From a virus (taxonomy: Duplodnaviria; Caudoviricetes), in IMG/VR virus record IMGVR_UViG_3300027782_000115, positions 1-52,720 of that record: DNA of 52,720 bases; one strand, 5' to 3'. The position numbers and the translations under genes were made by a program. A model generated the notes under the pieces. That model saw only the letters and a program-made list of their open reading frames with translations. It was not told the origin of the DNA and searched no databases. Positions 673 through 11,175 of the stretch are shown piece by piece (within the stretch, counting starts at the first letter, position 1; each line of letters begins with the position of its first letter).

Positions 673-688
673 CCTCTACTCTGTAGCA

Positions 689-729
689 GGGACGGGAAGC
701 TTCTCAGGGCTTGCCCGTCCATATTTTTT
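689..729 (+). terminator. Intrinsic terminator
   Basis: GGACGGG-AAGC...GCTT-G-CCCGTCC stem followed by ATATTTTTT. Confidence 0.6.
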
Positions 730-731
730 GG

Positions 732-760
732 TTGACAGGTGTGTGTTTTGATGCTATAAT
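732..760 (+). promoter_or_regulatory. sigma70-type early promoter
   Basis: TTGACA-N17-TATAAT with extended -10 TG; AAGGAG RBS downstream. Confidence 0.85.
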
Positions 761-786
761 ATACACATACTAAGGAGAGCGATACA

Positions 787-2004
787 ATGAGCAAAACAGA
801 TCAAACAATCATCGACAAACTGACAACTGCCCGTGTAGGGCTGTTGCTGAAAGCGCCGTTCTTCGGCAACATGGCAACCCGTATGCAATTAGTTGAAGCA
901 GACGAATGGTGCCCCACAGCGGCCACAGACGGTCGCAAGTTCTACTACAATACCAAGTTCGTTGAGAAGCTCAGTGTTAAGAAACTAGAGTTCCTGTTTG
1001 GACACGAGATTTGCCATTGCGTGTTTGATCACTTTGGTCGTGTAGGCTCACGCGATCGTCAGCTTTCTAACATCGCACAAGACTACGCGGTGAACCAGAT
1101 CCTCGTTGACGAGCGTATTGGTGAGAAGATCACTGAAGTTAAGATCTGTTATGACAGCAAGTATCGTGGTTTGGCTTGGGAAGAGATCTATGACATCCTG
1201 TGGGATAAAGCAGAGAAGATCTCTATGCCTGACTTGCTCAAGCAGTTAGGTGACCTGTTAGACGAGCACATCAACGAAGATGGTTCGAGCCCTGGCAAAG
1301 AAGGCGACAAAGAAGGCAAGGGTGGCAAGCCCGGCATGACCAAAGAAGAAGCACAGGCCATCCGTGATGAGATCAAAGAAGCCATGATCCAGAGTGCCGC
1401 GGCAGCAGGTGCAGGCAAGACCCCTGCAGGTATCCAACGCTTGATCAAGAACATGACTGAGCCTAAGATTAGCTGGCGTGACCTTGTACGTCAAGAGATC
1501 CAAAGCATTGTTCGCAACGATTACAGCTTCCAGCGTGTGAATCGCAAGAGTATGCACTCAGGTGCTATACTGCCAGGCATGAAAGAAGCAACTACCATTG
1601 ACGTGGCCATCAGCATTGACATGAGTGGTTCTATTGGTGATGAAGATGCAACTGCATTCCTCAGCGAGATCAAAGGCATCATGGACCAGTATGAAGACTT
1701 CCGCATCAACCTGTGGTGCTTTGACACAGAGATCTACAACTGGAAACAGATCACACACGATGACGCTCATGAGCTTGAGGACTATGAGCCTCAGGGTGGT
1801 GGCGGTACAGACTTCGAAGTCAACTGGACCTTCATGGAAGAGAACGGTATCGCTCCGAAGAAGTTCATCATGTTCACAGACGGCTACCCATGTGGCGGTT
1901 GGGGCAACGAGGATTACTGCGATACAATCTTTATCGTTAAAGGTAACACTTCAGCAGAAGCACCCTTTGGTCAGACTGTGATCTATGAAAAAGAGGCAGC
2001 ATGA
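787..2004 (+). CDS. DUF2201-type metallopeptidase + VWA domain protein (MoxR partner)
   Basis: TAATDG, HEICH (HExxH), MIDAS DMSGS, GGGGTDF and FTDGY motifs. Confidence 0.85.
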   Translation: MSKTDQTIIDKLTTARVGLLLKAPFFGNMATRMQLVEADEWCPTAATDGRKFYYNTKFVEKLSVKKLEFLFGHEICHCVFDHFGRVGSRDRQLSNIAQDYAVNQILVDERIGEKITEVKICYDSKYRGLAWEEIYDILWDKAEKISMPDLLKQLGDLLDEHINEDGSSPGKEGDKEGKGGKPGMTKEEAQAIRDEIKEAMIQSAAAAGAGKTPAGIQRLIKNMTEPKISWRDLVRQEIQSIVRNDYSFQRVNRKSMHSGAILPGMKEATTIDVAISIDMSGSIGDEDATAFLSEIKGIMDQYEDFRINLWCFDTEIYNWKQITHDDAHELEDYEPQGGGGTDFEVNWTFMEENGIAPKKFIMFTDGYPCGGWGNEDYCDTIFIVKGNTSAEAPFGQTVIYEKEAA

Positions 2005-2073
2005 TTGGAGTGCCAGGGGATGTGGCAGGTTAGCCACAGGCCCCGCTGCTTACGTGTGCGTACAACCTATCGG

Positions 2074-2102
2074 TTGACATCTAGGTATATTGGTGTTATA
2101 AT
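2074..2102 (+). promoter_or_regulatory. sigma70-type early promoter
   Basis: TTGACA-N17-TATAAT. Confidence 0.85.
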
Positions 2103-2133
2103 AAACACATAACAACAGAGCAAGGAGCGAAAG

Positions 2134-2271
2134 ATGGAAATGATAATTGCATTTGTAGTAGGTCTCATAGTGATGGATGTGTTGTGGGCATGGCGCCTAG
2201 GCATTCCCCAGATGCTGTGGTATCGCTTTAAGAATCGTAACAACCCCCAACCCGAAATTGATCAGGAGTAA
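2134..2271 (+). CDS. Small membrane protein, 45 aa (not in ORF track)
   Basis: AAGGAG RBS; MEMIIAFVVGLIVMDVLWAW... hydrophobic N-terminus. Confidence 0.65.
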   Translation: MEMIIAFVVGLIVMDVLWAWRLGIPQMLWYRFKNRNNPQPEIDQE

Positions 2272-2273
2272 TC

Positions 2274-2399
2274 ATGAGTCATATTATAGCATTCTTCCTC
2301 GGTATCTTTGTAGCAACTGTGGGCATCACAGGCGTGGCCAGTGTGGCTGACAGAGGTGTTACCCAAGTTCAACAAGTGATGAAAGAGGCTGCACAATGA
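2274..2399 (+). CDS. Small membrane protein, 41 aa (not in ORF track)
   Basis: AGGAG RBS; MSHIIAFFLGIFVATVGITG... Confidence 0.65.
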   Translation: MSHIIAFFLGIFVATVGITGVASVADRGVTQVQQVMKEAAQ

Positions 2400-2560
2400 G
2401 CGATCTAGCCTATGACATCGAGCAACTGTACATCGAGGGACACACACCTAGGATGATAGCAATCATGCTGGAGTGCCCCATCGAACAGGTCTTGGGCTGG
2501 TTGCAGGAAGTTGGTGTAGAAGCCGAAGACCACAGCCCGTATGCCACTGTAAACAGCTGA
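2396..2560 (+). CDS. Small protein, 54 aa, possible HTH (not in ORF track)
   Basis: ATGA coupling at the start; stop overlaps the next ATG (TGATG). MSDLAYDIEQLYIEGHTPRMIAIMLECPIEQVLGWL resembles an HTH pattern. Confidence 0.65.
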   Translation: MSDLAYDIEQLYIEGHTPRMIAIMLECPIEQVLGWLQEVGVEAEDHSPYATVNS

Positions 2561-2886
2561 TGAGCAAACTGGAGTACCTAGCTCGGCCAATGGTACCCTT
2601 TGATCCTTACAACAAGGATCATCGACGCTACTATGCAGCTTATCTAGAGTCGGGTGGTTGGGGGGCCTGTCCTGTAAGGTTTATCTGCCCTGAGGACAAC
2701 GGCGACAACCTGCCCAGCATGATCAAGAACAGTCTCATCGCGTGGTATGTTGAGAGCGAGTTCGGCGACGGCAAGCTGGCTAAAGAACGATCTAAGTCGT
2801 TGAAACTGAACGCTGACAGACTGTACAAGGAAGCTGGACAGATGCGCAAAGAAGCAGAGAGCCTGCTGAAACCCAGACGATCGTAG
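2560..2886 (+). CDS. Hypothetical protein, 108 aa
   Basis: Start re-assigned to MSKLEY, coupled to the upstream stop (TGATG). Confidence 0.7.
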   Translation: MSKLEYLARPMVPFDPYNKDHRRYYAAYLESGGWGACPVRFICPEDNGDNLPSMIKNSLIAWYVESEFGDGKLAKERSKSLKLNADRLYKEAGQMRKEAESLLKPRRS

Positions 2887-2903
2887 GGTCTTTCACAGAT
2901 TGG

Positions 2904-2932
2904 TTGACAGATTGGCTGTTCGGTGTTATACT
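2904..2932 (+). promoter_or_regulatory. sigma70-type early promoter
   Basis: TTGACA-N17-TATACT. Confidence 0.8.
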
Positions 2933-2961
2933 ATGGGTATAGTGAATAACAAGGAGCTGAA

Positions 2962-3342
2962 ATGAACGAATTCAAAAACTGGGAAGAGATGAGCACACTA
3001 GAGCAGTATGCTTGTCAGTACTGGGATATGCACAAGGATGCATATGGCGTTCGTCCACGCGGTATCGATACCAGCAGCTGGACCGAGGCTGACTTTGAAA
3101 TGGAGTTTGCCAGTCTAGGTGCTGTGATCCAGCAAGAAGAGGTTGTTCGCTGTGCCGCAGAGACTGAGGCCGTTCGCGGCTTTGAGATGCGAGTGCAGAG
3201 AATCTTAGCCTGCGGTGCTAAGGATCGGGCAATGGCCCTGCGTTGGATTCATGAGGCAGAAGGCACCAACGGTGACGACGAGTTCCTCTGTTGGACAGTA
3301 GGCTTGCCCTACCGTTATTTTGTAGATAACACGAAAGGCTAA
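2962..3342 (+). CDS. Hypothetical phage protein
   Basis: ORF with AAGGAG RBS after a promoter. Confidence 0.75.
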   Translation: MNEFKNWEEMSTLEQYACQYWDMHKDAYGVRPRGIDTSSWTEADFEMEFASLGAVIQQEEVVRCAAETEAVRGFEMRVQRILACGAKDRAMALRWIHEAEGTNGDDEFLCWTVGLPYRYFVDNTKG

Positions 3343-3344
3343 CG

Positions 3345-3575
3345 ATGAAGAAGTTCAAGTTCCTCATGAGTCGTACCAGTCTTATCGAAGAATCCTACTG
3401 GGTCGAAGCTGACTCAGAAGAAGAAGCCATGGAACTGGGGTTTGACGGTGAAGTTGACAACAGCGAGCCGGCCTATCGCAGATGGATTGACTATACCGAC
3501 GACGAATGGAGTATAGATGAGAAAGAATGCATTGACCCTTTGTATGTCATGGTCAAAGACTATCAACCAGGTTGA
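3345..3575 (+). CDS. Acidic hypothetical protein
   Basis: ORF with AAAGG RBS; stop lies inside the next -35 box. Confidence 0.7.
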   Translation: MKKFKFLMSRTSLIEESYWVEADSEEEAMELGFDGEVDNSEPAYRRWIDYTDDEWSIDEKECIDPLYVMVKDYQPG

Positions 3576-3600
3576 CACAGAGACATTTTGGTGTTATAAT
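3572..3600 (+). promoter_or_regulatory. sigma70-type early promoter
   Basis: TTGACA-N17-TATAAT. Confidence 0.85.
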
Positions 3601-3624
3601 ATTAACTTAACTTAAGGAGCGACT

Positions 3625-4257
3625 ATGCCTAATTGGTGTTCAAATCATATTACGGTGCGTGGAGACAATCCCGCAGAGATACAGCGACTAGCGGCTGCAT
3701 TCGCCGACAGTGGACTCTGCAACGCAGTGATCCCAGTGCCGCAAGACCTCACTGACACAGTCAGTGGCCGCCTAGGCAACGGCGACGAACAGAAGGCTTT
3801 GGAAGCCAAGACAGCAGCCAATCTAGAGAAGTATGGATATGGCAACTGGTATGACTATCAGATAGCCAAGTGGGGTACCAAGTGGGATGTCACCTGTGAC
3901 AGCGTAGAGATCGACCAAGACGGTCTTGGATTCAGCGGCAACTTTGACAGTGCCTGGTCACCTCCAGTTCCAATCGCAGAAGCATTGGCTGAACAAGGCT
4001 TTGAAGTCACACTTTACTACTACGAACCCGGTATGGGCTACTGTGGTAAATGGGAAGATGGATTCGATGACTACCACGAGTATAGTGGTGAGACTTCAGC
4101 AACTGTGCGAGCTGCCATCGGCGATGATCTTGATGACATGTTCGGTATCTCAGAATCCATCGCTGAATACGAAGCTGAGAATCCAGAGGAAGAGCTCACA
4201 GAGTGGATCAAAGACGGAGTTGAGAAGAACAACAAACTGGGATTGATCACAGAATGA
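3625..4257 (+). CDS. DUF1281/YubB ferredoxin-like domain protein
   Basis: MPNWCxN, WYDY..KWGTKWD, FDSAWSPP and YYEPG motifs. Confidence 0.75.
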   Translation: MPNWCSNHITVRGDNPAEIQRLAAAFADSGLCNAVIPVPQDLTDTVSGRLGNGDEQKALEAKTAANLEKYGYGNWYDYQIAKWGTKWDVTCDSVEIDQDGLGFSGNFDSAWSPPVPIAEALAEQGFEVTLYYYEPGMGYCGKWEDGFDDYHEYSGETSATVRAAIGDDLDDMFGISESIAEYEAENPEEELTEWIKDGVEKNNKLGLITE

Positions 4258-4430
4258 GAACCTACACCTTTACTTTTACCGTGAGCTGCCAAGGATCAGG
4301 ATCCCCGGATCTCGCCAGGGTAGAAGAGATGATTGATCTCAGCATGCAGGATCTGGTCTTCGATGACGAGTTCGTTGCTGCCCTTGATGAACAGGAGGCT
4401 GTGACCATACAGGTTAATTTGGTAAAATGA
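4254..4430 (+). CDS. Acidic hypothetical protein, 58 aa (not in ORF track)
   Basis: ATGA overlap; MRTYTFTFTVSCQGSGSPDLARVEEMID... Confidence 0.65.
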   Translation: MRTYTFTFTVSCQGSGSPDLARVEEMIDLSMQDLVFDDEFVAALDEQEAVTIQVNLVK

Positions 4431-4434
4431 ATGG

Positions 4435-4463
4435 TTGACGCTGAATCAAATCGGTGCTATACT
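4435..4463 (+). promoter_or_regulatory. sigma70-type early promoter
   Basis: TTGACG-N17-TATACT with extended -10. Confidence 0.75.
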
Positions 4464-4525
4464 AATAACATGCTGAAGAATTGGCATACACTTTAAACAC
4501 ACATAGAGAAAAAGGAAATAGTAAA

Positions 4526-4828
4526 ATGAGTACAGATAAGAAATTTGCAGTTGTAGGCGTCTCAACACACGAAGGCAAGACCAAGGTTCGGTTTGCCAAT
4601 GACACAATGCGTGTGAAGATCCTGCAGAAGAACGGTCACACTGATGTGGACATCGTAGAGCTGCCCACAGAGATGACCAAGGCTGAAGCCGTTCAGCACT
4701 TGAAGAGCACAGGCTTCGGCAAGGGCAACTCAGCTATCGAAGCTGCTCTGGCCTACGCTGAGAAGAAGAATCCAGTCTCCGTGACTGCCAAGAACTCCGC
4801 TGTAAAGGCAGAGACTGTTACCGCGTAA
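4526..4828 (+). CDS. Hypothetical protein, 100 aa
   Basis: Start MSTDKK after AAAGGA; followed by a terminator. Confidence 0.75.
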   Translation: MSTDKKFAVVGVSTHEGKTKVRFANDTMRVKILQKNGHTDVDIVELPTEMTKAEAVQHLKSTGFGKGNSAIEAALAYAEKKNPVSVTAKNSAVKAETVTA

Positions 4829-4858
4829 ATCCGACTCGCTCCCGGTACGGTGACCTTG

Positions 4859-4891
4859 GAGACCCTATGTAATGTAGGGTCTCTTTTTTTT
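4859..4891 (+). terminator. Intrinsic terminator
   Basis: GAGACCCTA...TAGGGTCTC stem + T8. Confidence 0.85.
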
Positions 4892-4893
4892 GG

Positions 4894-4922
4894 TTGACAG
4901 ATTGGACATTGTGCGTTATAAT
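4894..4922 (+). promoter_or_regulatory. sigma70-type early promoter
   Basis: TTGACA-N17-TATAAT. Confidence 0.85.
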
Positions 4923-4949
4923 AGCTACTTACACACACAGGAGCACACG

Positions 4950-5201
4950 ATGTTAACACAATGCATAGCATACGCTAAACTAGTTTACAACAAAAAATTA
5001 AATGCCTATAAAATGCAAATTGCATTTAATGTACACAAAGAGTTAGTGGGCACTAACTACAAAATGCGTTTTCCTGTACAAGCAAAATGCAACTATGTTA
5101 GTGGGGACTTACTTGCAGAAGATTTACAAAGTGAAGTGCAACGCACTATTGCAACAGCAAGCAAGCACCTGCGTACAACTAATATTGTAATAGTAGAGTA
5201 A
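4950..5201 (+). CDS. Hypothetical protein, 83 aa
   Basis: AGGAG RBS; start MLTQCIAY. Confidence 0.7.
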   Translation: MLTQCIAYAKLVYNKKLNAYKMQIAFNVHKELVGTNYKMRFPVQAKCNYVSGDLLAEDLQSEVQRTIATASKHLRTTNIVIVE

Positions 5202-5214
5202 AGCATAGGGCTAT

Positions 5215-5254
5215 TAGCACACTACTTGCATTTTGGACAGTAGTGTGCTATAAT
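5215..5254 (+). promoter_or_regulatory. Hairpin promoter copy 1
   Basis: TTGCAT(5226)-N17-TATAAT(5249) inside a 12-bp inverted repeat TAGCACACTACT/AGTAGTGTGCTA. Confidence 0.8.
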
Positions 5255-5279
5255 AACAACTTAGCAACAAAGGAACACA

Positions 5280-5438
5280 ATGCAAGACTTACAAGCACAA
5301 AAACAGCGTTTAGACAGTTTAATGTTTAGCGTACAAATTTTGCTAGACGAAATGGGTTTAGACGACGCATACACTGTGCAAAGTGCGTTTAATGCGTTAG
5401 CTTGTGCAGTAGACGAAGCTACAAGCGACAGCTACTAA
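5280..5438 (+). CDS. Acidic hypothetical protein, 52 aa (not in ORF track)
   Basis: AAGGA RBS; MQDLQAQKQRLDSLMFSVQILLDEMGLDD...; no Pro, all Ser codons AGY. Confidence 0.7.
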   Translation: MQDLQAQKQRLDSLMFSVQILLDEMGLDDAYTVQSAFNALACAVDEATSDSY

Positions 5439-5461
5439 TAACACTACAGCGTAAGGGTTAT

Positions 5462-5501
5462 TAGCACACTACTTGCATTTTGGACAGTAGTGTGCTATAA
5501 T
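5462..5501 (+). promoter_or_regulatory. Hairpin promoter copy 2
   Basis: Identical to copy 1 over the inverted repeat and the -10 box. Confidence 0.8.
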
Positions 5502-5532
5502 AAGTTTTTAAACAATGCAATAGGAGCACACA

Positions 5533-5910
5533 ATGCAAGCAACGACATTTAATGTTAGCGACAAGCTGACACTAGCAGGTACAGAGACTAACACAGACAG
5601 CATTAGCACAACATACGACTGCAATGTACTAGTGCAACTTGCGGGCGACAGTATATGGGACTGCGAGCTAGAGGCAGTTACAGTTACAAGCATACACATA
5701 CACGAGCAATGGTGGGACGAATTGGAAGGCGATAGTAGCATACACATTACAGTGTGCTACACAGTTAACGGCGACACAGAGTACGAGGGCAGTTGGAGAC
5801 TGTACACAGACAGCGGCTTTGTAGATGCGATTAGTACACTGCTAGGAACAGAGGTTATGTTTACAGAGCAGGGTATGCAAGACAACGGCTATGCTAGCAT
5901 GGAGCTGTAA
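5533..5910 (+). CDS. Very acidic hypothetical protein, 125 aa
   Basis: AGGAG RBS; about 22 D/E against 2 K/R; no Pro. Confidence 0.75.
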   Translation: MQATTFNVSDKLTLAGTETNTDSISTTYDCNVLVQLAGDSIWDCELEAVTVTSIHIHEQWWDELEGDSSIHITVCYTVNGDTEYEGSWRLYTDSGFVDAISTLLGTEVMFTEQGMQDNGYASMEL

Positions 5911-5931
5911 CACTACAACGTGTAGGGTCTT

Positions 5932-5970
5932 TAGCACACACTTGCATTTTGGACAAGTGTGTGCTATAAT
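5932..5970 (+). promoter_or_regulatory. Hairpin promoter copy 3
   Basis: TTGCAT(5942)-N17-TATAAT(5965) inside a 13-bp inverted repeat TAGCACACACTTG/CAAGTGTGTGCTA. Confidence 0.8.
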
Positions 5971-5997
5971 AAGTTTTTAAACAGTAAAAGGAAACAC

Positions 5998-6180
5998 ATG
6001 TCTAGACATCATTTAGTAGTATTTGCAAACTATTGCAGAGACACAGGCTTTACGCTTGTAGAGGCCGTTAAGTACGTGGGAGACAACTTAGAGACAGACG
6101 CAATTGACGACGAGATCGCGTATGCATATGAGGCAACATACGAAGAGCTTATGCAGTTTGTAGAGACCCAGACAGCGTAA
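5998..6180 (+). CDS. Acidic hypothetical protein, 60 aa
   Basis: AAGGA RBS; start MSRHHL. Confidence 0.7.
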   Translation: MSRHHLVVFANYCRDTGFTLVEAVKYVGDNLETDAIDDEIAYAYEATYEELMQFVETQTA

Positions 6181-6216
6181 GGGTCTTTGGGGCTACCGGC
6201 CCCGCTGCTTAAGGGG

Positions 6217-6245
6217 TTGACAGTTTGGCCTAAAGGCAGTATAAT
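6217..6245 (+). promoter_or_regulatory. sigma70-type early promoter
   Basis: TTGACA-N17-TATAAT. Confidence 0.85.
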
Positions 6246-6269
6246 AAACACATACACACAGGAGCAGAC

Positions 6270-6560
6270 ATGAACATCAGTCAAGTCAATCAGGCCATCA
6301 TGCATGGCAACTTCACCAACGATGAACTCAGTTCGATCATAGATGCGGTCAAGTATGGCCGGGCTCGACTCACACGAGAAGTCAAGCGAGGCCTGGCTGT
6401 GGGAGACAATGTGAACTTCACCAGCACCAAACTGGGACGCAACGTCACAGGAGTGATCACCAAGATCGCTATCAAGTATGTCACGGTTAAGACTGTGAAT
6501 GGCCTGTGGCGAGTGCCTGCGAACATGCTCTCCAAGATCGAAACCCCAGAGTTCGCATAA
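6270..6560 (+). CDS. Hypothetical protein, possible SH3/KOW-like C-terminus
   Basis: AGGAG RBS; LAVGDNVNF...GVITKI...WRVP pattern. Confidence 0.75.
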   Translation: MNISQVNQAIMHGNFTNDELSSIIDAVKYGRARLTREVKRGLAVGDNVNFTSTKLGRNVTGVITKIAIKYVTVKTVNGLWRVPANMLSKIETPEFA

Positions 6561-6562
6561 AT

Positions 6563-6952
6563 ATGGACATGATAGAAACTGTGCTGATCTTGGTGGTGGT
6601 GTTCTGGTTAGGTTACCAGACGGCCGCTAGATTCCATCGAAATATCTTCCGTGAGATCCTAAAGGAACTAGGAGTGACCGAACGGCAACTGAATGATCTC
6701 ATGCTGCGACAGCAGCAACAGTTGGCCGGCCTGACCCCCCAAGAACCCACTGCAGAGCTTGATGTGGTCGAAGTAAGGTTGGAACAGATGGGCGATGTGA
6801 TCTATGCTTATCGCAAGAGCGACGATCAGTTCCTAGGTCAAGGCTGTGATCGAGACAGCTTGATCCAGCGTTTGAACCAGAACCTCACTTCATGCAAGTT
6901 GGTGGTTGATGTGGACGACGGCGCTGATCTGTTGCGAAAAAACAACACCTAA
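6563..6952 (+). CDS. Membrane-anchored hypothetical protein (start 6563 or 6569)
   Basis: N-terminal TM segment VLILVVVFWLGY; ATAAATA motif 5 nt before the ATG at 6569. Confidence 0.7.
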   Translation: MDMIETVLILVVVFWLGYQTAARFHRNIFREILKELGVTERQLNDLMLRQQQQLAGLTPQEPTAELDVVEVRLEQMGDVIYAYRKSDDQFLGQGCDRDSLIQRLNQNLTSCKLVVDVDDGADLLRKNNT

Positions 6953-6957
6953 TTTGG

Positions 6958-6986
6958 TTGACAGATTGGGTGTTCAGTGTTACAAT
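6958..6986 (+). promoter_or_regulatory. sigma70-type promoter, probably leaderless transcript
   Basis: TTGACA-N17-TACAAT; ATG 6 nt after the -10 box with no SD. Confidence 0.75.
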
Positions 6987-6992
6987 ACACAC

Positions 6993-7223
6993 ATGAACAA
7001 AACAAATGAACTTCTACAATGGACAGGTGCTGTAGCCATAGTGCTAGGGCACATTCTCAACGCTGTAGGTCCTGCAGCTTATCCCTATAACATCATCGTG
7101 TTTGCTGTAGGCACAGTGCTGTTCTTAACATGGGCATTCCGCGTTAAGAACCGCCCGCAGCTGATGGTTAATGTGATTTCATTAGCCATAGGACTTGTAG
7201 GGTTATTGAGAGCAGTTGGTTGA
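6993..7223 (+). CDS. Small 3-TM membrane protein, 76 aa
   Basis: Three hydrophobic segments; start MNKTNELLQW. Confidence 0.7.
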   Translation: MNKTNELLQWTGAVAIVLGHILNAVGPAAYPYNIIVFAVGTVLFLTWAFRVKNRPQLMVNVISLAIGLVGLLRAVG

Positions 7224-7248
7224 CAGATTGGCAGTTTGAGCATATAAT
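7220..7248 (+). promoter_or_regulatory. sigma70-type promoter of the ncRNA-tRNA unit
   Basis: TTGACA-N17-TATAAT with no ORF or RBS downstream. Confidence 0.85.
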
Positions 7249-7274
7249 AGAAACAAGAAGAAAGAAAAAGCAAG

Positions 7275-7361
7275 GCGGTCCTCGAATGTAAGAACCCAGC
7301 AGCGATGCAAAAAGGGTTGGAACCAAGGGACTCGAAGCGAGTTAGGAGACTCGGCCTCCGC
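7275..7361 (+). ncRNA. Candidate structured RNA A
   Basis: GCGG/CCGC closing pairs; GTCCT/GGGAC; AACCC/GGGTT; GCA-GCGA-TGC GNRA hairpin; CGAGT/ACTCG hairpin. Confidence 0.5.
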
Positions 7362-7371
7362 GATAACAAAA

Positions 7372-7601
7372 CAGTTAGATAAGAGTTAAAGGTTACCTAG
7401 ACCACTAGGCGACTGGGAAGATGACAGTACCGACGGGCGCTGGTCGAGTCCAGGAGCATGAAACAAGGTCAGCGGCATAGGCCGTGTGGACCTGGAGTTG
7501 CGGTGGAGAATCTAGGCAGTAATGACCGTGCAGGCCCTTGTGGAGACGTTCCCCTGGGAAGAGATAGATGCACAATGGTTCCTTTAATTCTTTTCTAACT
7601 G
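7372..7601 (+). ncRNA. Candidate structured RNA B (~230 nt)
   Basis: 21-nt closing stem 7372-7392/7581-7601 (one G-U, one mismatch) plus several nested helices. Confidence 0.65.
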
Positions 7602-7608
7602 AGATTTT

Positions 7609-7684
7609 GCCGTGGTAGTCCTCTGGGTAGGGCATCTGATTGTCTATCAGACTCAGGCGGGTTCGATTCCCGTCCACGGCGCCA
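7609..7684 (+). tRNA. tRNA-Asp (GUC)
   Basis: Acceptor stem GCCGTGG/CCACGGC; anticodon stem TCTGA/TCAGA with GTC at 7642-7644; TTCGATT T-loop; discriminator G; encoded CCA. Confidence 0.93.
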
Positions 7685-7705
7685 CAACAACACAAGGAGC
7701 GAAAC

Positions 7706-7855
7706 ATGGCGAGATTCTTGCTAGAGACACAGAGAGGACAGTTCACAGTCTATGCTCTCGACGGTCATGTGTTGTTGGTCACTCGCATGTATTCCTTGGC
7801 GCATCGTGCGGCCCTAACAGAAATCCACAGAGCAATAGCAGTTAGTAGGGGTTGA
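7706..7855 (+). CDS. Hypothetical protein, 49 aa
   Basis: AAGGAG RBS; start MARFLLE. Confidence 0.65.
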   Translation: MARFLLETQRGQFTVYALDGHVLLVTRMYSLAHRAALTEIHRAIAVSRG

Positions 7856-7880
7856 CAGCCTAGCCAAAAGGTCTTATACT
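7852..7880 (+). promoter_or_regulatory. sigma70-type early promoter
   Basis: TTGACA-N17-TATACT. Confidence 0.8.
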
Positions 7881-7906
7881 ACAGATATTAACACAAAGGA
7901 ATCAAA

Positions 7907-8203
7907 ATGAAACACGTGAAGATCGCCATTGTTGCCCTAGCCGCTGTGATAGCAGTTCCAGCTCATGCAGACATCACACAACGCGATGTCCTGGGCGTGG
8001 CCATAGGAGCCTTGATTGGTTATCAACTTGCCAAGCCTGGTTCACAGCCACAGCATGACCAACCACAGTCAGTGCCTATGCATCAAGGTCATCGACACGA
8101 TCACATGCCGGCCACCTGTGTTCTGCGCCAGGTCTACAGCGCACCAGGCCAAGGTCCTATCTATGTTCAAGAGTGCCACGGCGGTGGCCGTAGACACTAC
8201 TAA
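7907..8203 (+). CDS. Exported protein with glycine-zipper-like segment
   Basis: Signal peptide ending AHA; GVAIGALIG. Confidence 0.7.
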   Translation: MKHVKIAIVALAAVIAVPAHADITQRDVLGVAIGALIGYQLAKPGSQPQHDQPQSVPMHQGHRHDHMPATCVLRQVYSAPGQGPIYVQECHGGGRRHY

Positions 8204-8212
8204 GGAGCAGCC

Positions 8213-8473
8213 GTGGGTTTCGTAGTCTATGATCAGCAGTCGGGACGCATGGAGAAGTACTACAAATTGGCTTCAACAGCCAAGCGGATCTGCACTCAGC
8301 ACAACACCGAACGCACCTACGATTGGGGTAGGACGATGGGGGTGCCTAGCTATACCTACAGTCCGGAACGTGTGTGGGCTTTCTGCTCATACAGGGACTA
8401 TGAAGGCATATTGATGGGACTGCGTGGTGATGCACTGAAGATGTGGCAGTTCTGCAACACTGATATTGGTTGA
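8213..8473 (+). CDS. Hypothetical protein
   Basis: AAGGAG RBS with GTG start. Confidence 0.7.
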   Translation: MGFVVYDQQSGRMEKYYKLASTAKRICTQHNTERTYDWGRTMGVPSYTYSPERVWAFCSYRDYEGILMGLRGDALKMWQFCNTDIG

Positions 8474-8498
8474 CACTTTGGGTGTTTGATCGTATACT
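8470..8498 (+). promoter_or_regulatory. sigma70-type early promoter
   Basis: TTGACA-N17-TATACT. Confidence 0.8.
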
Positions 8499-8528
8499 AG
8501 AGGCTAAGTTAAACAAAAGGAGCGAACT

Positions 8529-8642
8529 ATGTTACAACTGATCGGATTCTGTGCTGTGGTATATTTAGGTTGGGTCTCTGGCATCATCCAAGCTATGCTG
8601 TTGATCACTGCTGGTTTTTTAACTACAATCGCAGGAGTCTAA
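8529..8642 (+). CDS. Hydrophobic microprotein, 37 aa (not in ORF track)
   Basis: AAGGAG RBS; MLQLIGFCAVVYLGWVSGIIQAMLLITAGFLTTIAGV. Confidence 0.6.
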   Translation: MLQLIGFCAVVYLGWVSGIIQAMLLITAGFLTTIAGV

Positions 8643-8643
8643 C

Positions 8644-8739
8644 ATGGAATGGATCATCCCCGTAATCCTAGCTTTTACTGGTCAGTTGGTGTTGGGCTTG
8701 GCAGTGGCCGCAGTGCTGATCTTCATCGAACAGGAATAA
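8644..8739 (+). CDS. Hydrophobic microprotein, 31 aa (not in ORF track)
   Basis: AGGAG RBS; MEWIIPVILAFTGQLVLGLAVAAVLIFIEQE. Confidence 0.6.
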   Translation: MEWIIPVILAFTGQLVLGLAVAAVLIFIEQE

Positions 8740-8748
8740 CCCAGTTGG

Positions 8749-8777
8749 TTGACAGGTCTTTCAAAAGACCGTATAAT
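8749..8777 (+). promoter_or_regulatory. sigma70-type early promoter
   Basis: TTGACA-N17-TATAAT; spacer contains the palindrome GGTCTT-TCAA-AAGACC. Confidence 0.85.
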
Positions 8778-8803
8778 ATACACATACACACAAAGGAGCA
8801 CAC

Positions 8804-9073
8804 ATGAAAGCACTACAGGCATACATTGATCAGCAAAACCGTTGGAACTCACTGTTCAGCGGCAACTGCGTGGTCTTTGAAGTCCAGACCGCCAAGGGAC
8901 GTGAGTTCGTGGCACGACACATTGACAGCGCACTGAGTCCTGAGAACCTCAGCTGTGATGGCGAACTGTCACGCACGGAAACACAGGCTCGCTATCGTGC
9001 ATTGACCAACGCGGCACGAGACTTGATCCAGCTGGATCCTACAATGGCCGAATTTATCTACGAATTCGGTTGA
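8804..9073 (+). CDS. Hypothetical phage protein
   Basis: AAGGAG RBS; LSPENLSCDGE motif. Confidence 0.75.
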   Translation: MKALQAYIDQQNRWNSLFSGNCVVFEVQTAKGREFVARHIDSALSPENLSCDGELSRTETQARYRALTNAARDLIQLDPTMAEFIYEFG

Positions 9074-9098
9074 CAGTTTGAGCATTTGACCTTATAAT
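9070..9098 (+). promoter_or_regulatory. sigma70-type early promoter
   Basis: TTGACA-N17-TATAAT. Confidence 0.85.
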
Positions 9099-9129
9099 AA
9101 ACACATACACACACAAACAGGAGCGAAAA

Positions 9130-9654
9130 ATGAAAGTAGTTGAATACACACAAAACAAGGCCATGGGATTCTTTGATGCCAACACTAACCCTGTGGTAGT
9201 AGAGTTCATGCTGGGCAATGAAGTATTAGTAGTCACAGGTGAGCGTGGCCGGGCAGTGAGCAACGGTCAGATTCAGAAGTATTTGGGCTTCTTGGAAAAA
9301 GATCAGACATTCACTAACCGTTCAGTAACTGATCTCGCTTATCAATCATTCTTGTTAGAAAACGGCCGCACCAAGAACGGGAAACCGGTGCGAGCCCTGG
9401 GCTTCATCGGCAAGAACATACCCGAAGGCCGCTCAGGTGATGTGACCCTGCGTGTTACCATCTGTAACACAGTCGAGCAAGCAGCCACAGTGAGCAAACT
9501 GTATCGCGACACTCGCTTGCCTAAAGTACGCACCATCCGCAGGGCAGTGCCTATTGGCAACAACACAGTCTCTGAACTCAGCATGTATCGTCCTACTGAC
9601 AACCTAGTGATCGATGCTGGCAGCGCTCGTAATGTAGTGGCTAGATTTGCCTAA
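9130..9654 (+). CDS. Hypothetical protein
   Basis: AGGAG RBS; 174-aa ORF. Confidence 0.75.
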   Translation: MKVVEYTQNKAMGFFDANTNPVVVEFMLGNEVLVVTGERGRAVSNGQIQKYLGFLEKDQTFTNRSVTDLAYQSFLLENGRTKNGKPVRALGFIGKNIPEGRSGDVTLRVTICNTVEQAATVSKLYRDTRLPKVRTIRRAVPIGNNTVSELSMYRPTDNLVIDAGSARNVVARFA

Positions 9655-9968
9655 TGCAAGCACTGGTAGAAACCACAGGGGGCGCATTCCACGCCCACAC
9701 ATATCTACTAGACGGTAACAATCTAGTAGCATATGTAAAAGTCAACGAGCTTAAGCCGTTCTACTTCAAGAACCCAATCAAAGGATTCGACAAGAGAGGT
9801 AGGAAGTTTGCACCAGGCAACAAGAACTTATTCACAATCAAGAAAGAAACTCATGGACGCACAGTTATTGGTAGTAGTGGGCAAACGTACACAGTCACAG
9901 AACACTCATGTACGTGTCCAGGATACACCTACAGAGGTACCTGCAAACACATGGCAGAACATGTGTGA
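9654..9968 (+). CDS. SWIM zinc-finger protein
   Basis: CTC-x8-CKH motif. Confidence 0.75.
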   Translation: MQALVETTGGAFHAHTYLLDGNNLVAYVKVNELKPFYFKNPIKGFDKRGRKFAPGNKNLFTIKKETHGRTVIGSSGQTYTVTEHSCTCPGYTYRGTCKHMAEHV

Positions 9969-9986
9969 CTATCTAAAGAGCCTGGC

Positions 9987-10223
9987 ATGATCACCATACA
10001 CGGACTCACCAAGCGGCAACACAAGCTGGCACAACTGCTGTGGTCGGTGCAGGATGTAGAGCAGCACATACTATTCCTCAAGAGCCTAGAGGGGCGTGAT
10101 CGCGTAGATGCACACGGCATCACAGAGATAATGATACAAGAGTTCTTATGGGAGACACTGGATGAAGATACAGAAAGCCAAGCAGTCTGCGCTGCTGTTA
10201 TTGATCGCGCTCGCAGCAGCTAG
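9987..10223 (+). CDS. Hypothetical protein
   Basis: ORF continuing the operon. Confidence 0.55.
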   Translation: MITIHGLTKRQHKLAQLLWSVQDVEQHILFLKSLEGRDRVDAHGITEIMIQEFLWETLDEDTESQAVCAAVIDRARSS

Positions 10224-10386
10224 CACGGGCTGCGCTACACACGATCGCAGGGACACAGCCTGGGACCCAAAGATATCTCAGGGCAAGACTCTGTTCGATC
10301 AGATGCCCAACTGGGACAACGCTGCGGAGAAGATCTGCTGTGGTCACCTGAGACAGTGTAAGGCCAATCAATCGCCGAGGTGCTGA
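10162..10386 (+). CDS. Putative small lipoprotein
   Basis: Basic N-terminus, hydrophobic stretch, lipobox-like STG-C; Cys-rich C-terminus. Confidence 0.55.
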   Translation: MKIQKAKQSALLLLIALAAASTGCATHDRRDTAWDPKISQGKTLFDQMPNWDNAAEKICCGHLRQCKANQSPRC

Positions 10387-10556
10387 GGTCATGGTGAGGG
10401 GCCGGTGGTGGTCATGGTGGGGTGGTCGGTATACACGTAGTATGTTAGTATGCGCTAACTAGCAGCTATGGGGTCTAGATTCACCACCCAAGAAACATAA
10501 GTACTCCACCCAAATTTTTTACGCCGCAATTTTTTAGGCCTCTAGACCCCGTCGGG

Positions 10557-10931
10557 CTAACCCCTCAGATATTCTATTGCACGTTGTAATCGTTCTACAT
10601 CGTCTGCGAGATTGCCCAATCCTAGATTACACTTGTGACACAGCCATCCTCGGAACAGCCCAGTCACATGATCGTGATCACAGACCCAGCCTTTGAGTCT
10701 AGTACTGTGTCCCTGCATCATTGCAAAGTCGCGTCTACATATAGGACATTGATGATCATCAGCCACTGGGGGCGCGGTTTTCTTGATTGCTCTCAGTGTT
10801 TTACTCTGTGCGCTGGCACACTGTTTACACTCATATCTAGGATAGCCATGCCGTCCACCGTCCCTACCGAACTCGCTTAATGGTTTCGATATTAGGCACA
10901 TGCCACAGGTCTTTGTTGTGATTGTTGTCAT
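10557..10931 (-). CDS. Endonuclease VII-like (His-Me finger) nuclease, 124 aa
   Basis: CxxC pairs; CPIC...DHDH..G.FRGWLC..CN..LG motif; start re-assigned to MTTITT. Confidence 0.85.
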   Translation of the reverse strand: MTTITTKTCGMCLISKPLSEFGRDGGRHGYPRYECKQCASAQSKTLRAIKKTAPPVADDHQCPICRRDFAMMQGHSTRLKGWVCDHDHVTGLFRGWLCHKCNLGLGNLADDVERLQRAIEYLRG

Positions 10932-10938
10932 AGCAGCT

Positions 10939-10967
10939 ATTATAGCTAAAGTTCTACACTGTGTCAA
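10939..10967 (-). promoter_or_regulatory. sigma70-type promoter, probably leaderless transcript
   Basis: TTGACA-N17-TATAAT on the - strand; ATG 7 nt after the -10 box. Confidence 0.8.
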
Positions 10968-10983
10968 CCCTTGTAAATACCAT

Positions 10984-11175
10984 ATGCGAATCATATACAC
11001 CACTCTCAGCCTTGCGCCCGCTCCCCTATTCTTGCTAGGGTTTATATACAGTGTGTTTACTCCCAGTGCCATATGCGGAGTAGATTGGTCTATGCCTGTG
11101 ATGTGGTTTGTTATGTTTCTAGCCCATTTAACACCGTGGGTTCTACGCTGTCAACAACTGTACCTTACCAGGTAA
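10984..11175 (+). CDS. Small 2-TM membrane protein, 63 aa
   Basis: Hydrophobic; preceded by GTAAATA late-type motif. Confidence 0.55.
   Translation: MRIIYTTLSLAPAPLFLLGFIYSVFTPSAICGVDWSMPVMWFVMFLAHLTPWVLRCQQLYLTR

What the first reader, a model, noticed from the sequence alone, without database searches (positions are those of the whole stretch)
7372..7601. Unrecognised ~230-nt multi-helix ncRNA directly upstream of tRNA-Asp
Seen: CAGTTAGATAAGAGTTAAAGG (7372-7392) pairs with CCTTTAATTCTTTTCTAACTG (7581-7601). Nested helices: CCTAGA/TCTAGG (7396-7401/7511-7516), CCAC/GTGG, GCGACT/AGTTGC, TCCAGG/CCTGGA (7449-7454/7491-7496), CGGC-ATAG-GCCG, ACC-GTGCA/TGCAC-GGT (7525-7532/7569-7579) and TTCC/GGAA. 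It follows a consensus promoter, has no sense ORF, and ends 7 nt before the tRNA, so RNase P processing would release its 3' end. I cannot match it by eye to tmRNA, 6S, SRP, RNase P or small ribozyme cores. Inference: a novel phage ncRNA. GOLLD and ROOL RNAs are precedents for tRNA-linked phage RNAs.
Basis: partly seen in the sequence, partly recalled or inferred. Interest (0 to 1): 0.8.

Follow-up and report, generated by a model that had tools for sequence, protein, structure and literature searches.

The report
New structured RNA of jumbo phages
The ~230-base stretch beside a tRNA gene in this giant freshwater phage belongs to an uncatalogued family of intricately folded phage RNAs whose shape has been preserved by evolution, though its job is still unknown.

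Summary
The finding is real, and its main interpretation holds. Window 7372-7601 folds better than all 200 shuffles (z -3.6) and matches no Rfam 15 family. It is one member of a conserved RNA family that I call module B. I collected 56 distinct copies from IMG/VR and JGI metagenome contigs. 31 of 48 consensus base pairs show compensatory double changes, and 97.4% of cells are paired against 84.5% in shuffles. The fold is strand-specific and no reading frame is conserved.

The RNA has a long closing stem (20-29 bp in 19 of 26 copies, in several unrelated sequence versions) and a three-way junction with invariant joining strands. It also has a GNRA-capped arm and a possible loop-loop contact.

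It occurs once per genome in 12 of 43 phage records, including 4 of 6 near-complete ~350-kb genomes. A sigma-70-like promoter match lies upstream of all 53 testable copies. 15 of 53 have a tRNA directly downstream, usually tRNA-Asp.

A closely related phage lacks it at the same site. No reverse transcriptase, Ro protein or cellular homolog was found. A second conserved RNA (module A, 7265-7363) lies between the promoter and this RNA. Function is inferred only.

The parts
7220..7248 (+). Consensus sigma-70 promoter (TTGACA-17-TATAAT) that drives the unit
   Evidence: scores it 12 of 12. It is one of 10 such sites in window 700-11000, against 0.05 expected by chance.
7265..7363 (+). Module A: a separate conserved Y-shaped RNA of about 95 nt, lying between the promoter and the finding
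   Evidence: A 27-mer from it hits 11 IMG/VR loci. 15 distinct copies fold to 27 pairs, 5 of them with compensatory changes. It stands alone before the next promoter in L104.
7372..7392 (+). P1, 5' strand of the long closing stem
   Evidence: The window's duplex is -26.5 kcal/mol, against -8.6 +/- 2.7 for shuffled partners.
7396..7406 (+). P2, 5' strand (pairs with 7502-7516)
   Evidence: Six of its 11 pairs have changes on both sides.
7409..7457 (+). P3 arm (7409-7418 with 7449-7457), carrying hairpin P3a (7427-7431 with 7436-7440) with loop 7432-7435
   Evidence: Changes on both sides occur in 1 of the 2 basal pairs (helix 4), all 5 pairs of helix 5, and 3 of 4 pairs of P3a.
7458..7464 (+). 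Conserved single-stranded junction segment of the inner three-way junction
   Evidence: It holds invariant columns in A1.
7466..7493 (+). P4, a hairpin of variable length. The window has a long version with the CGGC-ATAG-GCCG tip. Many other copies end in a GNRA-type tetraloop.
   Evidence: All 3 basal pairs have changes on both sides.
7502..7516 (+). P2, 3' strand
7518..7533 (+). Invariant junction strand running into the 5' strand of P5. It is part of the 17-nt word that is identical in the 23 aligned copies; those copies were collected with that word, so the identity is partly by construction.
7534..7559 (+). P6 hairpin (7534-7544 with 7550-7559) with conserved loop 7545-7549
   Evidence: 8 of 10 pairs have changes on both sides.
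7560..7580 (+). Conserved 9-nt bulge (7560-7568) followed by the 3' strand of P5 (7569-7580)
   Evidence: The segment is nearly invariant.
7581..7601 (+). P1, 3' strand
7609..7684 (+). tRNA-Asp (GTC) with encoded CCA, co-oriented and starting 7 nt after P1
   Evidence: 47.7 bits. An identical tRNA is found in L086, L093, L095 and L101.

Best explanation
Window 7369-7604 encodes one member of a previously uncatalogued family of phage structured non-coding RNAs, which I call module B. The RNA is about 190 nt of core plus a long closing stem.

Shown:
- The fold is conserved through many compensatory changes and is strand-specific.
- The family is single-copy where present in ~350-kb freshwater jumbo phages.
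- A sigma-70-type promoter match lies within 260 nt upstream of every copy that could be tested.
- The RNA is often the first element of a tRNA array.

Inferred:
- It is transcribed early by host RNA polymerase. In the window this is one transcript from the promoter at 7220-7248, holding module A, module B and tRNA-Asp.
- It is then cut out as a discrete stable RNA. The 20-29-bp stem formed by its two flanks is the size of an RNase III substrate, as in rRNA precursors. Where a tRNA follows, RNase P cleavage at the tRNA 5' end trims the 3' side.
- The mature RNA is a compact particle. Two arms leave a three-way junction with invariant joining strands. The arms are probably held together by a loop-loop contact (7432-7435 with 7545-7549) and a GNRA-capped arm.
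- It acts in trans by binding a conserved host or phage factor. It is an accessory early function such as host take-over, counter-defence, or tRNA or translation metabolism, and is not essential phage machinery.
For: Family and fold:
- A 17-nt word from the RNA hits 33 IMG/VR loci. With the window that makes 34 sequences. 8 were exact duplicates and 3 were cut by contig ends, which left 23 distinct full-length copies.
- RNAalifold on their MAFFT alignment predicts 48 pairs, 24 of them with compensatory double changes.
- The covariance model R1 finds divergent members at 51.4, 45.7 and 30.2 bits. It also confirms 40 of the 80 metagenome loci that share the word.
- On 56 distinct copies, 97.4% of cells pair, against 84.5% in shuffles. 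31 of 48 pairs have double changes, against 19.5 +/- 1.6. No shuffle of 500 reaches any of the five measures. Slid registers give at most 12 such pairs and at most 43.5% pairing.

Strand and coding:
- Alifold energy is -41.9 on the + strand and -23.5 on the reverse complement. Anchor spacing falls in all three reading phases.

Closing stem:
- 19 of 26 copies have 20-29 pairs, at -21 to -39 kcal/mol, against about -7 to -11 for shuffled partners. The stems come in several unrelated sequence versions.

Copy number and spread:
- Exactly one match in each of 12 of 43 phage records, including 4 of 6 records that are at least 90% complete.

Context:
- 53 of 53 copies with at least 200 nt upstream have a promoter-like match within 260 nt. 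In 16 of them it ends within 25 nt of the RNA. The pattern was a loose regex with no shuffle control.
- 15 of 53 copies have a tRNA starting within 30 nt (Asp 9, Leu 3, Ser 2, Glu 1).
- 22 of 53 have the next promoter within 40 nt.

Accessory nature:
- The syntenic site of relative G004 (terminase 98% identical) holds a small ORF and a gene whose translation I read by eye as a DNA methyltransferase (no family search run).
- A more distant syntenic contig, L082, keeps a divergent copy at the same place.

Loop-loop contact:
- The partner positions read A-U in 40, C-G in 7 and G-U in 4 of 56 copies.

RNA libraries:
- Contigs of 4 metatranscriptome runs from 4 studies carry module A- and module B-like sequence at 90-100% likeness.
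Against: - No transcript ends, abundance or processing were observed. The RNA-library evidence is from contigs only. Several of those contigs run on into promoter or unlike upstream sequence, so they may come from DNA carry-over or read-through.
- The alignments A2 and A4 were fitted to the model, which favours its structure. The independent MAFFT figure is 24 of 48 pairs.
- Most copies fall into a few clades, so cell counts overstate the number of independent events.
- Seven of 26 copies lack the long stem. Six of them, all directly behind module A, show only about 4 pairs with energies within the shuffle range; for the seventh (L082) my flank boundaries were probably wrong. RNase III excision therefore cannot be general.
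- In 16 of 53 copies the promoter abuts the RNA, so the 5' end needs no processing.
- Only 15 of 53 copies have an adjacent tRNA.
- The P5 helix is almost invariant, so it is not proven by covariation.
- The loop-loop contact rests on one covarying position that follows clade structure, and 4-5 copies mismatch there.
- No binding partner or function has been tested. The trans-acting role is inference from conservation of unpaired nucleotides and from the varied downstream genes.
Confidence: 0.55

Rival explanations
1. It is a cis-acting leader element of the transcript it sits in, and not a free RNA. It would be a structured 5' module that protects or organises the precursor. It might stabilise the 5' end, insulate folding of the following tRNA, direct processing, or modify the transcribing polymerase as phage put RNAs and rRNA-operon leaders do.
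For: - It is promoter-proximal in every testable copy: 53 of 53 have a promoter-like match within 260 nt, and 16 have one within 25 nt.
- 15 of 53 are followed within 30 nt by a tRNA.
- 12 of 53 have a leader with a motif that I recall as resembling the boxA antitermination element, plus hairpins, ahead of the long stem. That layout resembles rRNA operons. The resemblance is recalled, not tested.
Against: - In 22 of 53 copies the next gene has its own promoter within 40 nt, so it needs nothing from the RNA.
- The downstream genes differ between loci.
- About 190 nt of near-invariant junctions and loops is far more than end protection needs.
- No terminator-like platform follows it consistently.
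Confidence: 0.2
2. It is a catalytic or ligand-sensing RNA, meaning a new self-cleaving or processing ribozyme, or an aptamer. The invariant junction would be the active or binding site.
For: The architecture is a three-way junction with invariant joining strands, distal arms probably tied by a loop-loop contact, and a GNRA-capped arm. As I recall them, known aptamers and small ribozymes share this layout.
Against: - No ribozyme or riboswitch model in Rfam 15 matches, even at E<=10.
- The 20-29-bp P1 is too stable to act as a switching helix.
- There is no consistent expression platform.
- Hammerhead-, group I- and RNase P-like motifs that I thought I saw by eye rest on memory only, and the models do not back them.
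Confidence: 0.12
3. It is a DNA-level element. It would be a miniature inverted-repeat mobile element, or a cruciform or recombination site bounded by 21-bp terminal inverted repeats.
For: - It has terminal inverted repeats of 21 nt.
- The unit occurs in different genomic contexts and is missing from a close relative at the same site.
Against: - There is one copy per genome in all 12 positive records and one in the window.
- 0 of 58 bacterial or archaeal loci that share the 17-mer pass the model. 0 of 151 sampled genomes of the class of a Pseudomonas genome match.
- Conserved G-U pairs and the energy asymmetry between strands point to RNA.
- No target-site duplication is visible at 7371/7602.
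Confidence: 0.03
4. It is a retron-type msr-msd RNA, with the terminal stem serving as the a1/a2 pairing.
For: It has a long pairing of the two ends.
Against: - No RVT_1 domain in the window.
- None in 5 near-complete related jumbo phage genomes, 4 of which carry the RNA. The control genomes did ring in that search.
- Downstream neighbours are tRNAs or unrelated small genes.
Confidence: 0.01
5. It is a chance fold or a decaying remnant with no function.
For: The whole 441-nt transcript region is not significantly more stable than shuffles (z -1.54).
Against: - z is -3.6 for the element itself.
- There are 56 distinct conserved copies with compensatory changes in 31 of 48 pairs.
- A 17-nt word is identical in all 23 aligned full-length copies, though they were collected with that word.
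Confidence: 0.02

Closest known systems
Phage T4 'species 1' and 'species 2' stable RNAs (rnaC, rnaD)
   Same: They are small stable RNAs of unknown function encoded inside the tRNA gene cluster of a T4-type phage, next to a tRNA (annotation of AF158101). The window's phage has a T4-type large terminase. From established knowledge, they mature from the tRNA precursor transcripts.
   Different: There is no sequence or structure similarity. Model R1 scores at most 8.3 bits anywhere in the T4 tRNA region with filters off, and the best places are not rnaC or rnaD. The T4 RNAs are 139 and 119 nt and lie at the distal end of the cluster. Module B is about 220 nt and sits at the head of a transcription unit.
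GOLLD and ROOL large ornate RNAs
   Same: They are elaborate, covarying non-coding RNAs of unknown function. As I recall, they are often found in phages or prophages and beside tRNA genes.
   Different: As I recall they are several times larger. Their Rfam models give no match here at E<=10 or in 10 homologous loci at E<=1. No homology is claimed.
rRNA-operon processing stems (RNase III excision of 16S/23S precursors)
   Same: Flanking sequences pair into a duplex of at least 20 bp that encloses a structured RNA. In 12 of 53 loci the unit is preceded by a leader with a boxA-like motif and hairpins, and it is often followed by a tRNA. This suggests how the RNA is cut out.
   Different: The enclosed RNA is not rRNA, since no SSU, LSU or 5S model matches. 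Cleavage was not observed. 7 of 26 copies lack the long stem (for one of them, L082, my flank boundaries were probably wrong).
Candidate structured RNAs catalogued from IMG/VR (Fremin, Bhatt and Kyrpides 2023, PMC10690425)
   Same: That study mined the same collection and reports 8,495 unnamed candidates, some overlapping tRNA-Asp predictions (passages read). This family may be among them.
   Different: The main text passages I read describe no RNA with this anatomy or context.
Retron msr-msd RNA
   Same: Long complementary ends.
   Different: No reverse transcriptase in the window or in 5 near-complete relatives.

Membership tests
Any Rfam 15 family (including GOLLD, ROOL, RNase P, group I intron, tmRNA, 6S, SRP, small ribozymes, riboswitches) | A covariance-model match to the family | tested here: not met
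   Only the tRNA matches at gathering threshold over the whole window. At E<=10 over 7100-7750, nothing overlaps the + strand of 7372-7601 except a chance-level antisense lncRNA model. In 10 homologous loci scanned at E<=1, no family falls on the module.
tRNA / tmRNA | Cloverleaf or tmRNA recognised by ARAGORN | tested here: not met
   ARAGORN finds only tRNA-Asp at 7609-7684 in the window.
Retron ncRNA | A reverse transcriptase gene beside or with the RNA | tested here: not met
   PF00078 is absent from the window and from 5 near-complete related genomes. The positive controls rang.
Retron ncRNA | Complementary a1/a2 ends | tested here: met
   A 21-nt terminal pairing is present. It is present in 19 of 26 copies.
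Bacterial Y RNA (Ro/Rsr-associated) | A Ro (TROVE) protein encoded with the RNA | tested here: not met
   PF05731 is absent from 5 near-complete related genomes. The controls rang.
T4 rnaC/rnaD stable RNAs | Homology of sequence and structure | tested here: not met
   R1 scores at most 8.3 bits over T4 70.5-73 kb with filters off.
T4 rnaC/rnaD stable RNAs | Non-tRNA stable RNA encoded within a phage tRNA cluster | tested here: met
   tRNAs flank module B in L129, L144, L145, L147, L148 and L151-L153. Stability of the RNA was not tested.
MITE / insertion element | Multiple dispersed copies with target-site duplications | tested here: not met
   There is one copy in each of 12 positive records and one in the window. 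No duplication is seen at the borders.
RNase III-excised RNA (rRNA-precursor type) | The flanks form a duplex of about two helical turns | tested here: met
   19 of 26 copies have 20-29 pairs, far below shuffled energies.
RNase III-excised RNA (rRNA-precursor type) | Cleavage in the stem by RNase III | not testable with these tools
   This needs end mapping in wild-type and rnc-mutant cells.
Riboswitch | An expression platform (terminator or RBS-sequestering helix) coupled to the aptamer, upstream of a regulated mRNA | tested here: not met
   Downstream there is a tRNA in 15 of 53 copies, another promoter in 22 of 53, and neither in the rest. No + strand terminator-like site is seen at 7372-7700.

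The most novel reading that the evidence does not exclude
Module B is a new class of compact, tertiary-structured phage RNA with an activity of its own. One possibility is a decoy or inhibitor RNA that disarms a host defence or RNA-processing protein early in infection. It may be paired functionally with the unusual tRNA-Asp that so often follows it. The other possibility is a new ribozyme or ligand-binding RNA whose invariant three-way junction is the active site.
Probability: 0.25. Interest if true: 0.85.

Novelty: new variant of a known kind. Interest (0 to 1): 0.62.

Why it matters
Phage tRNA clusters have long been known to hold stable RNAs of unknown role, such as T4 species 1 and 2. Large ornate RNAs such as GOLLD and ROOL are still unexplained.

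This finding adds a well-defined family with clean covariation that is small enough (about 220 nt) for structural and biochemical work. It has a companion RNA (module A) and clear transcription signals that E. coli-type polymerase should read. It is an accessory cassette under strong early promoters in ~350-kb freshwater phages. That is the type of place where host take-over and counter-defence functions sit.

The covariance model and alignment made here would allow it to be annotated in phage genomes and metagenomes, and would allow a direct test of what it binds or does.

Tried and rejected
Searches that found nothing useful:
- blastn of window 7200-7700 and of the terminase/portal region against 50,697 GenBank phage records gave no match.
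- blastn of 7250-7605 against 24 records of terminase relatives gave 0 of 24.
- A 31-nt word from the variable P4 hairpin gave 0 hits in IMG/VR. That hairpin later proved to be the least conserved part.
- ORF 9130-9654 has no relatives in IMG/VR.
- None of the 9 small flanking ORFs has an informative PHROG match.

Anchoring on the tRNA:
- A word from the tRNA 3' half brought 18 loci. None carries module B, and only L095 shares module A.
- At that point the element looked unconserved. That reading was overturned.

Hypotheses tested and rejected:
- Retron.
- Ro/Y RNA.
- Homology to T4 rnaC/rnaD.
- A cellular homolog. 58 genome-contig hits of the 17-mer are about what chance gives by my own estimate, and 0 of 58 pass R1. 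0 of 3 and 0 of 151 genomes match. These are samples, so I can only say 'not found in those searched'.
- A coding region.

Weaker leads:
- A scan of all column pairs for extra covarying pairs gave mostly clade-linked artefacts. Only the P3a-loop/P6-loop position was kept, and only as tentative.
- By eye I considered RNase P (P4-like strands), the group I intron S element, the hammerhead core, the loop E motif, CsrA-binding GGA motifs, antisense pairing to the 16S 3' end, and pairing between module B and module A. All rest on memory or on invariant bases. None is backed by a model or by covariation, and the module A variants do not covary with module B. I dropped them.
- For the six copies directly behind module A, I tested pairing of their outer flanks. 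The energies are within the shuffle range.

RNA libraries:
- No contig lay on 7000-7221. Cover of 7466-7493 and of most of 7687-8000 was absent or came from a single contig. Parts without cover prove nothing, and the laid records are relatives' contigs.

- Supplementary files of papers are closed, so I could not check whether the family is one of the 8,495 IMG/VR candidates of PMC10690425.
- Literature searches listed nothing that describes this RNA. For PMC10690425 I read passages. For the 2026 tRNA-mimic preprint I read the abstract and outline. For all other papers I saw only the search listings.
Full report
**What the window is.** The window is a 52.7-kb IMG/VR virus record that CheckV puts at 15% complete. 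That implies a phage genome of about 350 kb. It encodes a T4-type large terminase, a DnaB-like helicase and a RecA-like protein. The first 11 kb are a run of small genes, each behind a perfect or near-perfect sigma-70 promoter. There are 10 sites of TTGACA-17-TAYAAT where 0.05 are expected, and 9 of them are on the + strand. The finding lies in this early-type region.

**The observation.** The 21-nt arms at 7372-7392 and 7581-7601 pair. The 230-nt stretch folds to -83.6 kcal/mol, against -67.5 +/- 4.5 for 200 dinucleotide shuffles (z -3.6), and no shuffle does as well. tRNA-Asp(GTC) follows at 7609-7684. Rfam 15 recognises only the tRNA, both at gathering scores over the whole window and at E<=10 over 7100-7750. 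The longer stretch 7250-7690 is not clearly more stable than shuffles (z -1.54). A 46-aa sense frame does exist at 7458-7598.

**First searches for relatives.** These made the element look unconserved.
- GenBank phages gave nothing.
- The terminase has 377 relatives among 380 matched IMG/VR stretches, many 98% identical. Yet blastn of 7250-7605 found nothing in 24 of their records.
- Record G004 is syntenic with window 1-16 kb. The membrane-protein gene at 6993-7223 is conserved, but from 7235 to about 8500 G004 carries a small ORF and what reads by eye like a DNA methyltransferase gene.
- Anchoring on the tRNA's 3' half brought 18 loci. In most of them the same tRNA-Asp sits inside tRNA arrays.
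- Only L095 shares the promoter and the 115 nt behind it, and it has about 80 nt where the window has the 238-nt stretch.

**The turn.** A 27-nt word from that shared leader hit 11 IMG/VR loci. In two of them, L103 and L107, the leader is followed by clear homologs of window 7389-7585. Three more carry a divergent version. A 17-nt word common to these homologs then hit 33 IMG/VR loci, many on contigs of 340-356 kb. With the window that made 34 sequences. I dropped 8 exact duplicates and 3 copies cut by contig ends, which left 23 distinct full-length copies.

**Conservation of the fold.**
- On a MAFFT alignment of the 23 copies (A1), RNAalifold predicts 48 pairs, and 24 have at least one sequence with both sides changed and the pair kept.
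- A covariance model built from it (R1, 221 positions) finds all these copies at 174-235 bits. It also finds divergent members at 51.4 (L112), 45.7 (L105) and 30.2 bits (L082/L083), plus partial copies at contig ends.
- The same word scanned over JGI metagenome contigs hit at least 120 stretches, of which 80 were returned. 40 of those 80 are true members by R1, and the rest are chance matches of the word.
- On 57 matches (56 distinct) aligned to the model, 97.4% of cells form standard pairs, against 84.5% in column shuffles. 31 of 48 pairs carry double changes, against 19.5 +/- 1.6. Cells with double changes number 336 against 93.6. No shuffle of 500 reaches any of the five measures. Sliding the 3' partners by 1-3 columns gives at most 12 such pairs and at most 43.5% pairing.
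- Two caveats apply. That alignment was fitted to the model, and the copies fall into a few clades. The independent figure is therefore the 24 of 48.
- The fold belongs to the + strand, with alifold energy -41.9 against -23.5 for the reverse complement. The spacing between two invariant anchors takes all three residues modulo 3 among the 23 copies, so no reading frame is conserved.

**Anatomy in window coordinates.**
- P1: 7372-7392 with 7581-7601.
- P2: 7396-7406 with 7502-7516. It encloses an inner three-way junction made of P3 and P4.
- P3: 7409-7418 with 7449-7457. It carries hairpin P3a (7427-7431 with 7436-7440, loop 7432-7435).
- A conserved single strand at 7458-7464.
- P4: base at 7466-7468 with 7491-7493. 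Its length varies, and many copies end in a GNRA-type tetraloop. The window has a long version.
- An invariant joining strand at about 7518-7525.
- P5: 7524-7532 with 7569-7580. It encloses P6.
- P6: 7534-7544 with 7550-7559, with a conserved 5-nt loop at 7545-7549.
- A conserved 9-nt bulge at 7560-7568.

P1 is 20-29 pairs long in 19 of 26 copies. Its energies are -21 to -39 kcal/mol, against about -7 to -11 for shuffled partners. It comes in several unrelated sequence versions, which is itself covariation. Six copies that sit directly behind module A have only about 4 pairs. A scan of all column pairs suggested one tertiary contact between the P3a loop and the P6 loop. The partner positions read A-U in 40, C-G in 7 and G-U in 4 of 56 copies, with a few mismatches. 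I hold that contact as tentative.

**Distribution.**
- R1 finds exactly one copy in each of 12 of 43 phage records searched whole. These include 4 of the 6 records that are at least 90% complete. The other two near-complete genomes and all 26 records found through the window's terminase have none at E<=0.001, though most of those 26 are fragments.
- The contig L082 is syntenic with the window. Its neighbouring proteins are 52%, 70%, 89% and 78% identical, and it keeps a divergent copy at the same place, without module A or the tRNA.
- The RNA is therefore an old but dispensable cassette.
- It was not found in cells. 0 of 58 bacterial or archaeal loci sharing the 17-mer pass R1. 0 of 151 sampled genomes of the class of a Pseudomonas genome match. 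These are samples only.

**Context (56 distinct copies).**
- All 53 copies with at least 200 nt upstream have a sigma-70-like match within 260 nt. The pattern was a loose regex without a shuffle control.
- In 16 of them the promoter ends within 25 nt of the RNA.
- In 22, module A lies between promoter and RNA.
- In 12, the leader carries a motif that I recall as resembling the boxA antitermination element of rRNA operons, plus hairpins.
- Of 53 copies with at least 100 nt downstream, 15 have a tRNA starting within 30 nt (Asp 9, Leu 3, Ser 2, Glu 1). 22 have the next promoter within 40 nt. 16 have neither.
- In the large genomes the RNA sits inside arrays of up to 24 tRNAs, some with a tmRNA nearby.

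**Module A.** Window 7265-7363 is a separate conserved RNA. 15 distinct copies fold to 27 predicted pairs, 5 of them with compensatory changes. It stands alone in front of the next promoter in L104, and it lies apart from module B in L141 and L143.

**Known families considered.**
- Retron: no reverse transcriptase in the window or in 5 near-complete relatives.
- Ro/Y RNA: no TROVE protein.
- T4 rnaC and rnaD, the classical stable RNAs of a phage tRNA cluster: annotated in AF158101, but R1 scores at most 8.3 bits there with filters off.
- Ten homologous loci scanned against Rfam at E<=1 show tRNAs and a beta-proteobacterial-type tmRNA, and nothing on module B.
- The literature searches I ran list no description of this RNA. 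The IMG/VR catalogue of 8,495 unnamed candidates (PMC10690425, passages read) may contain it.

**Expression.** 14 DNA-type freshwater or metagenome runs hold 24-95% of the sampled words of window 7000-8000. 6 RNA runs hold 6-18%. Contigs of four metatranscriptome runs from four studies lie on parts of module A, module B and the tRNA at 90-100% likeness. Several of them continue into promoter or unrelated upstream sequence, and contigs cannot show ends, strand or level. This is compatible with transcription but does not show it.

**How it most likely works.**
- Shown: a conserved, strand-specific, promoter-led, single-copy structured RNA gene.
- Inferred: early transcription by host polymerase, and release as a discrete stable RNA. 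Release would use the RNase III-sized P1 duplex and, where a tRNA follows, RNase P. The particle would be compact, with invariant junction strands and loops that bind a conserved partner in trans.
- The varied downstream genes, the patchy presence among close relatives and the early-cassette setting argue for an accessory function in host take-over, counter-defence or tRNA metabolism, and against essential machinery.
- Rivals: a cis-acting leader, a ribozyme or aptamer, a DNA element, a retron, and chance. They are weighed in their own sections.

**Verdict.** The finding is a real new RNA family. Its anatomy and spread are now defined, and its function is open.

Noticed in passing
window 7265-7363: Module A is a second conserved structured RNA of about 95 nt, lying between the promoter and the finding. 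There are 15 distinct copies in IMG/VR loci, folding to 27 pairs with 5 compensatory. It stands alone before the next promoter in L104 and has no Rfam match.
   Followed up: partly
window 700-11000: There are ten perfect TTGACA-17-TAYAAT promoters where 0.05 are expected, nine of them on the + strand, each heading a small gene or RNA. This looks like a cassette-built early region. The relative G004 has different cassettes at the same places, including a gene that reads by eye like a DNA methyltransferase where the window has the RNAs and tRNA.
   Followed up: partly
L113, L119, L120, L122, L124, L129, L133, L138 and others, upstream of module B: In 12 of 53 loci the leader between promoter and P1 holds a short motif that I recall as resembling the boxA antitermination element of rRNA operons. 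It is flanked by hairpins. The unit therefore reads promoter, boxA-like leader, long processing stem, RNA, tRNA, like a miniature rRNA operon. The resemblance is recalled, not tested.
   Followed up: no
L095, L106, L110, L112 (after tRNAs) and L082 about 6930-7010: A third recurring non-coding element of about 60-80 nt, with a GC-rich hairpin, follows tRNA-Asp or other tRNAs in several loci. In L082 it follows the divergent module B. It is absent from the window.
   Followed up: no
L105 1637-1715; L155 2315-2393: ARAGORN calls a tRNA with anticodon CTA (an amber suppressor, labelled tRNA-Pyl) inside the tRNA array of a 225-kb relative. This hints at stop-codon recoding in that phage.
   Followed up: no
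L155 284-728; L106, L109, L110, L112: The phages encode tmRNAs. The one in L155 matches the beta-proteobacterial tmRNA model at 133.8 bits, which suggests a Burkholderiales-type host for this phage group.
   Followed up: no
window 7609-7684: By my reading of the sequence, the tRNA-Asp has a pyrimidine at the position 3' of the anticodon. It scores only 47.7 bits. The identical tRNA occurs in unrelated contexts (L086, L093, L095, L101).
   Followed up: no
window 1-2004: A putative metallopeptidase/VWA-like protein (DUF2201_N plus DUF2201) is encoded at 787-2004, behind an open-ended ORF at 1-672. It is conserved at 84% identity in G004.
   Followed up: no
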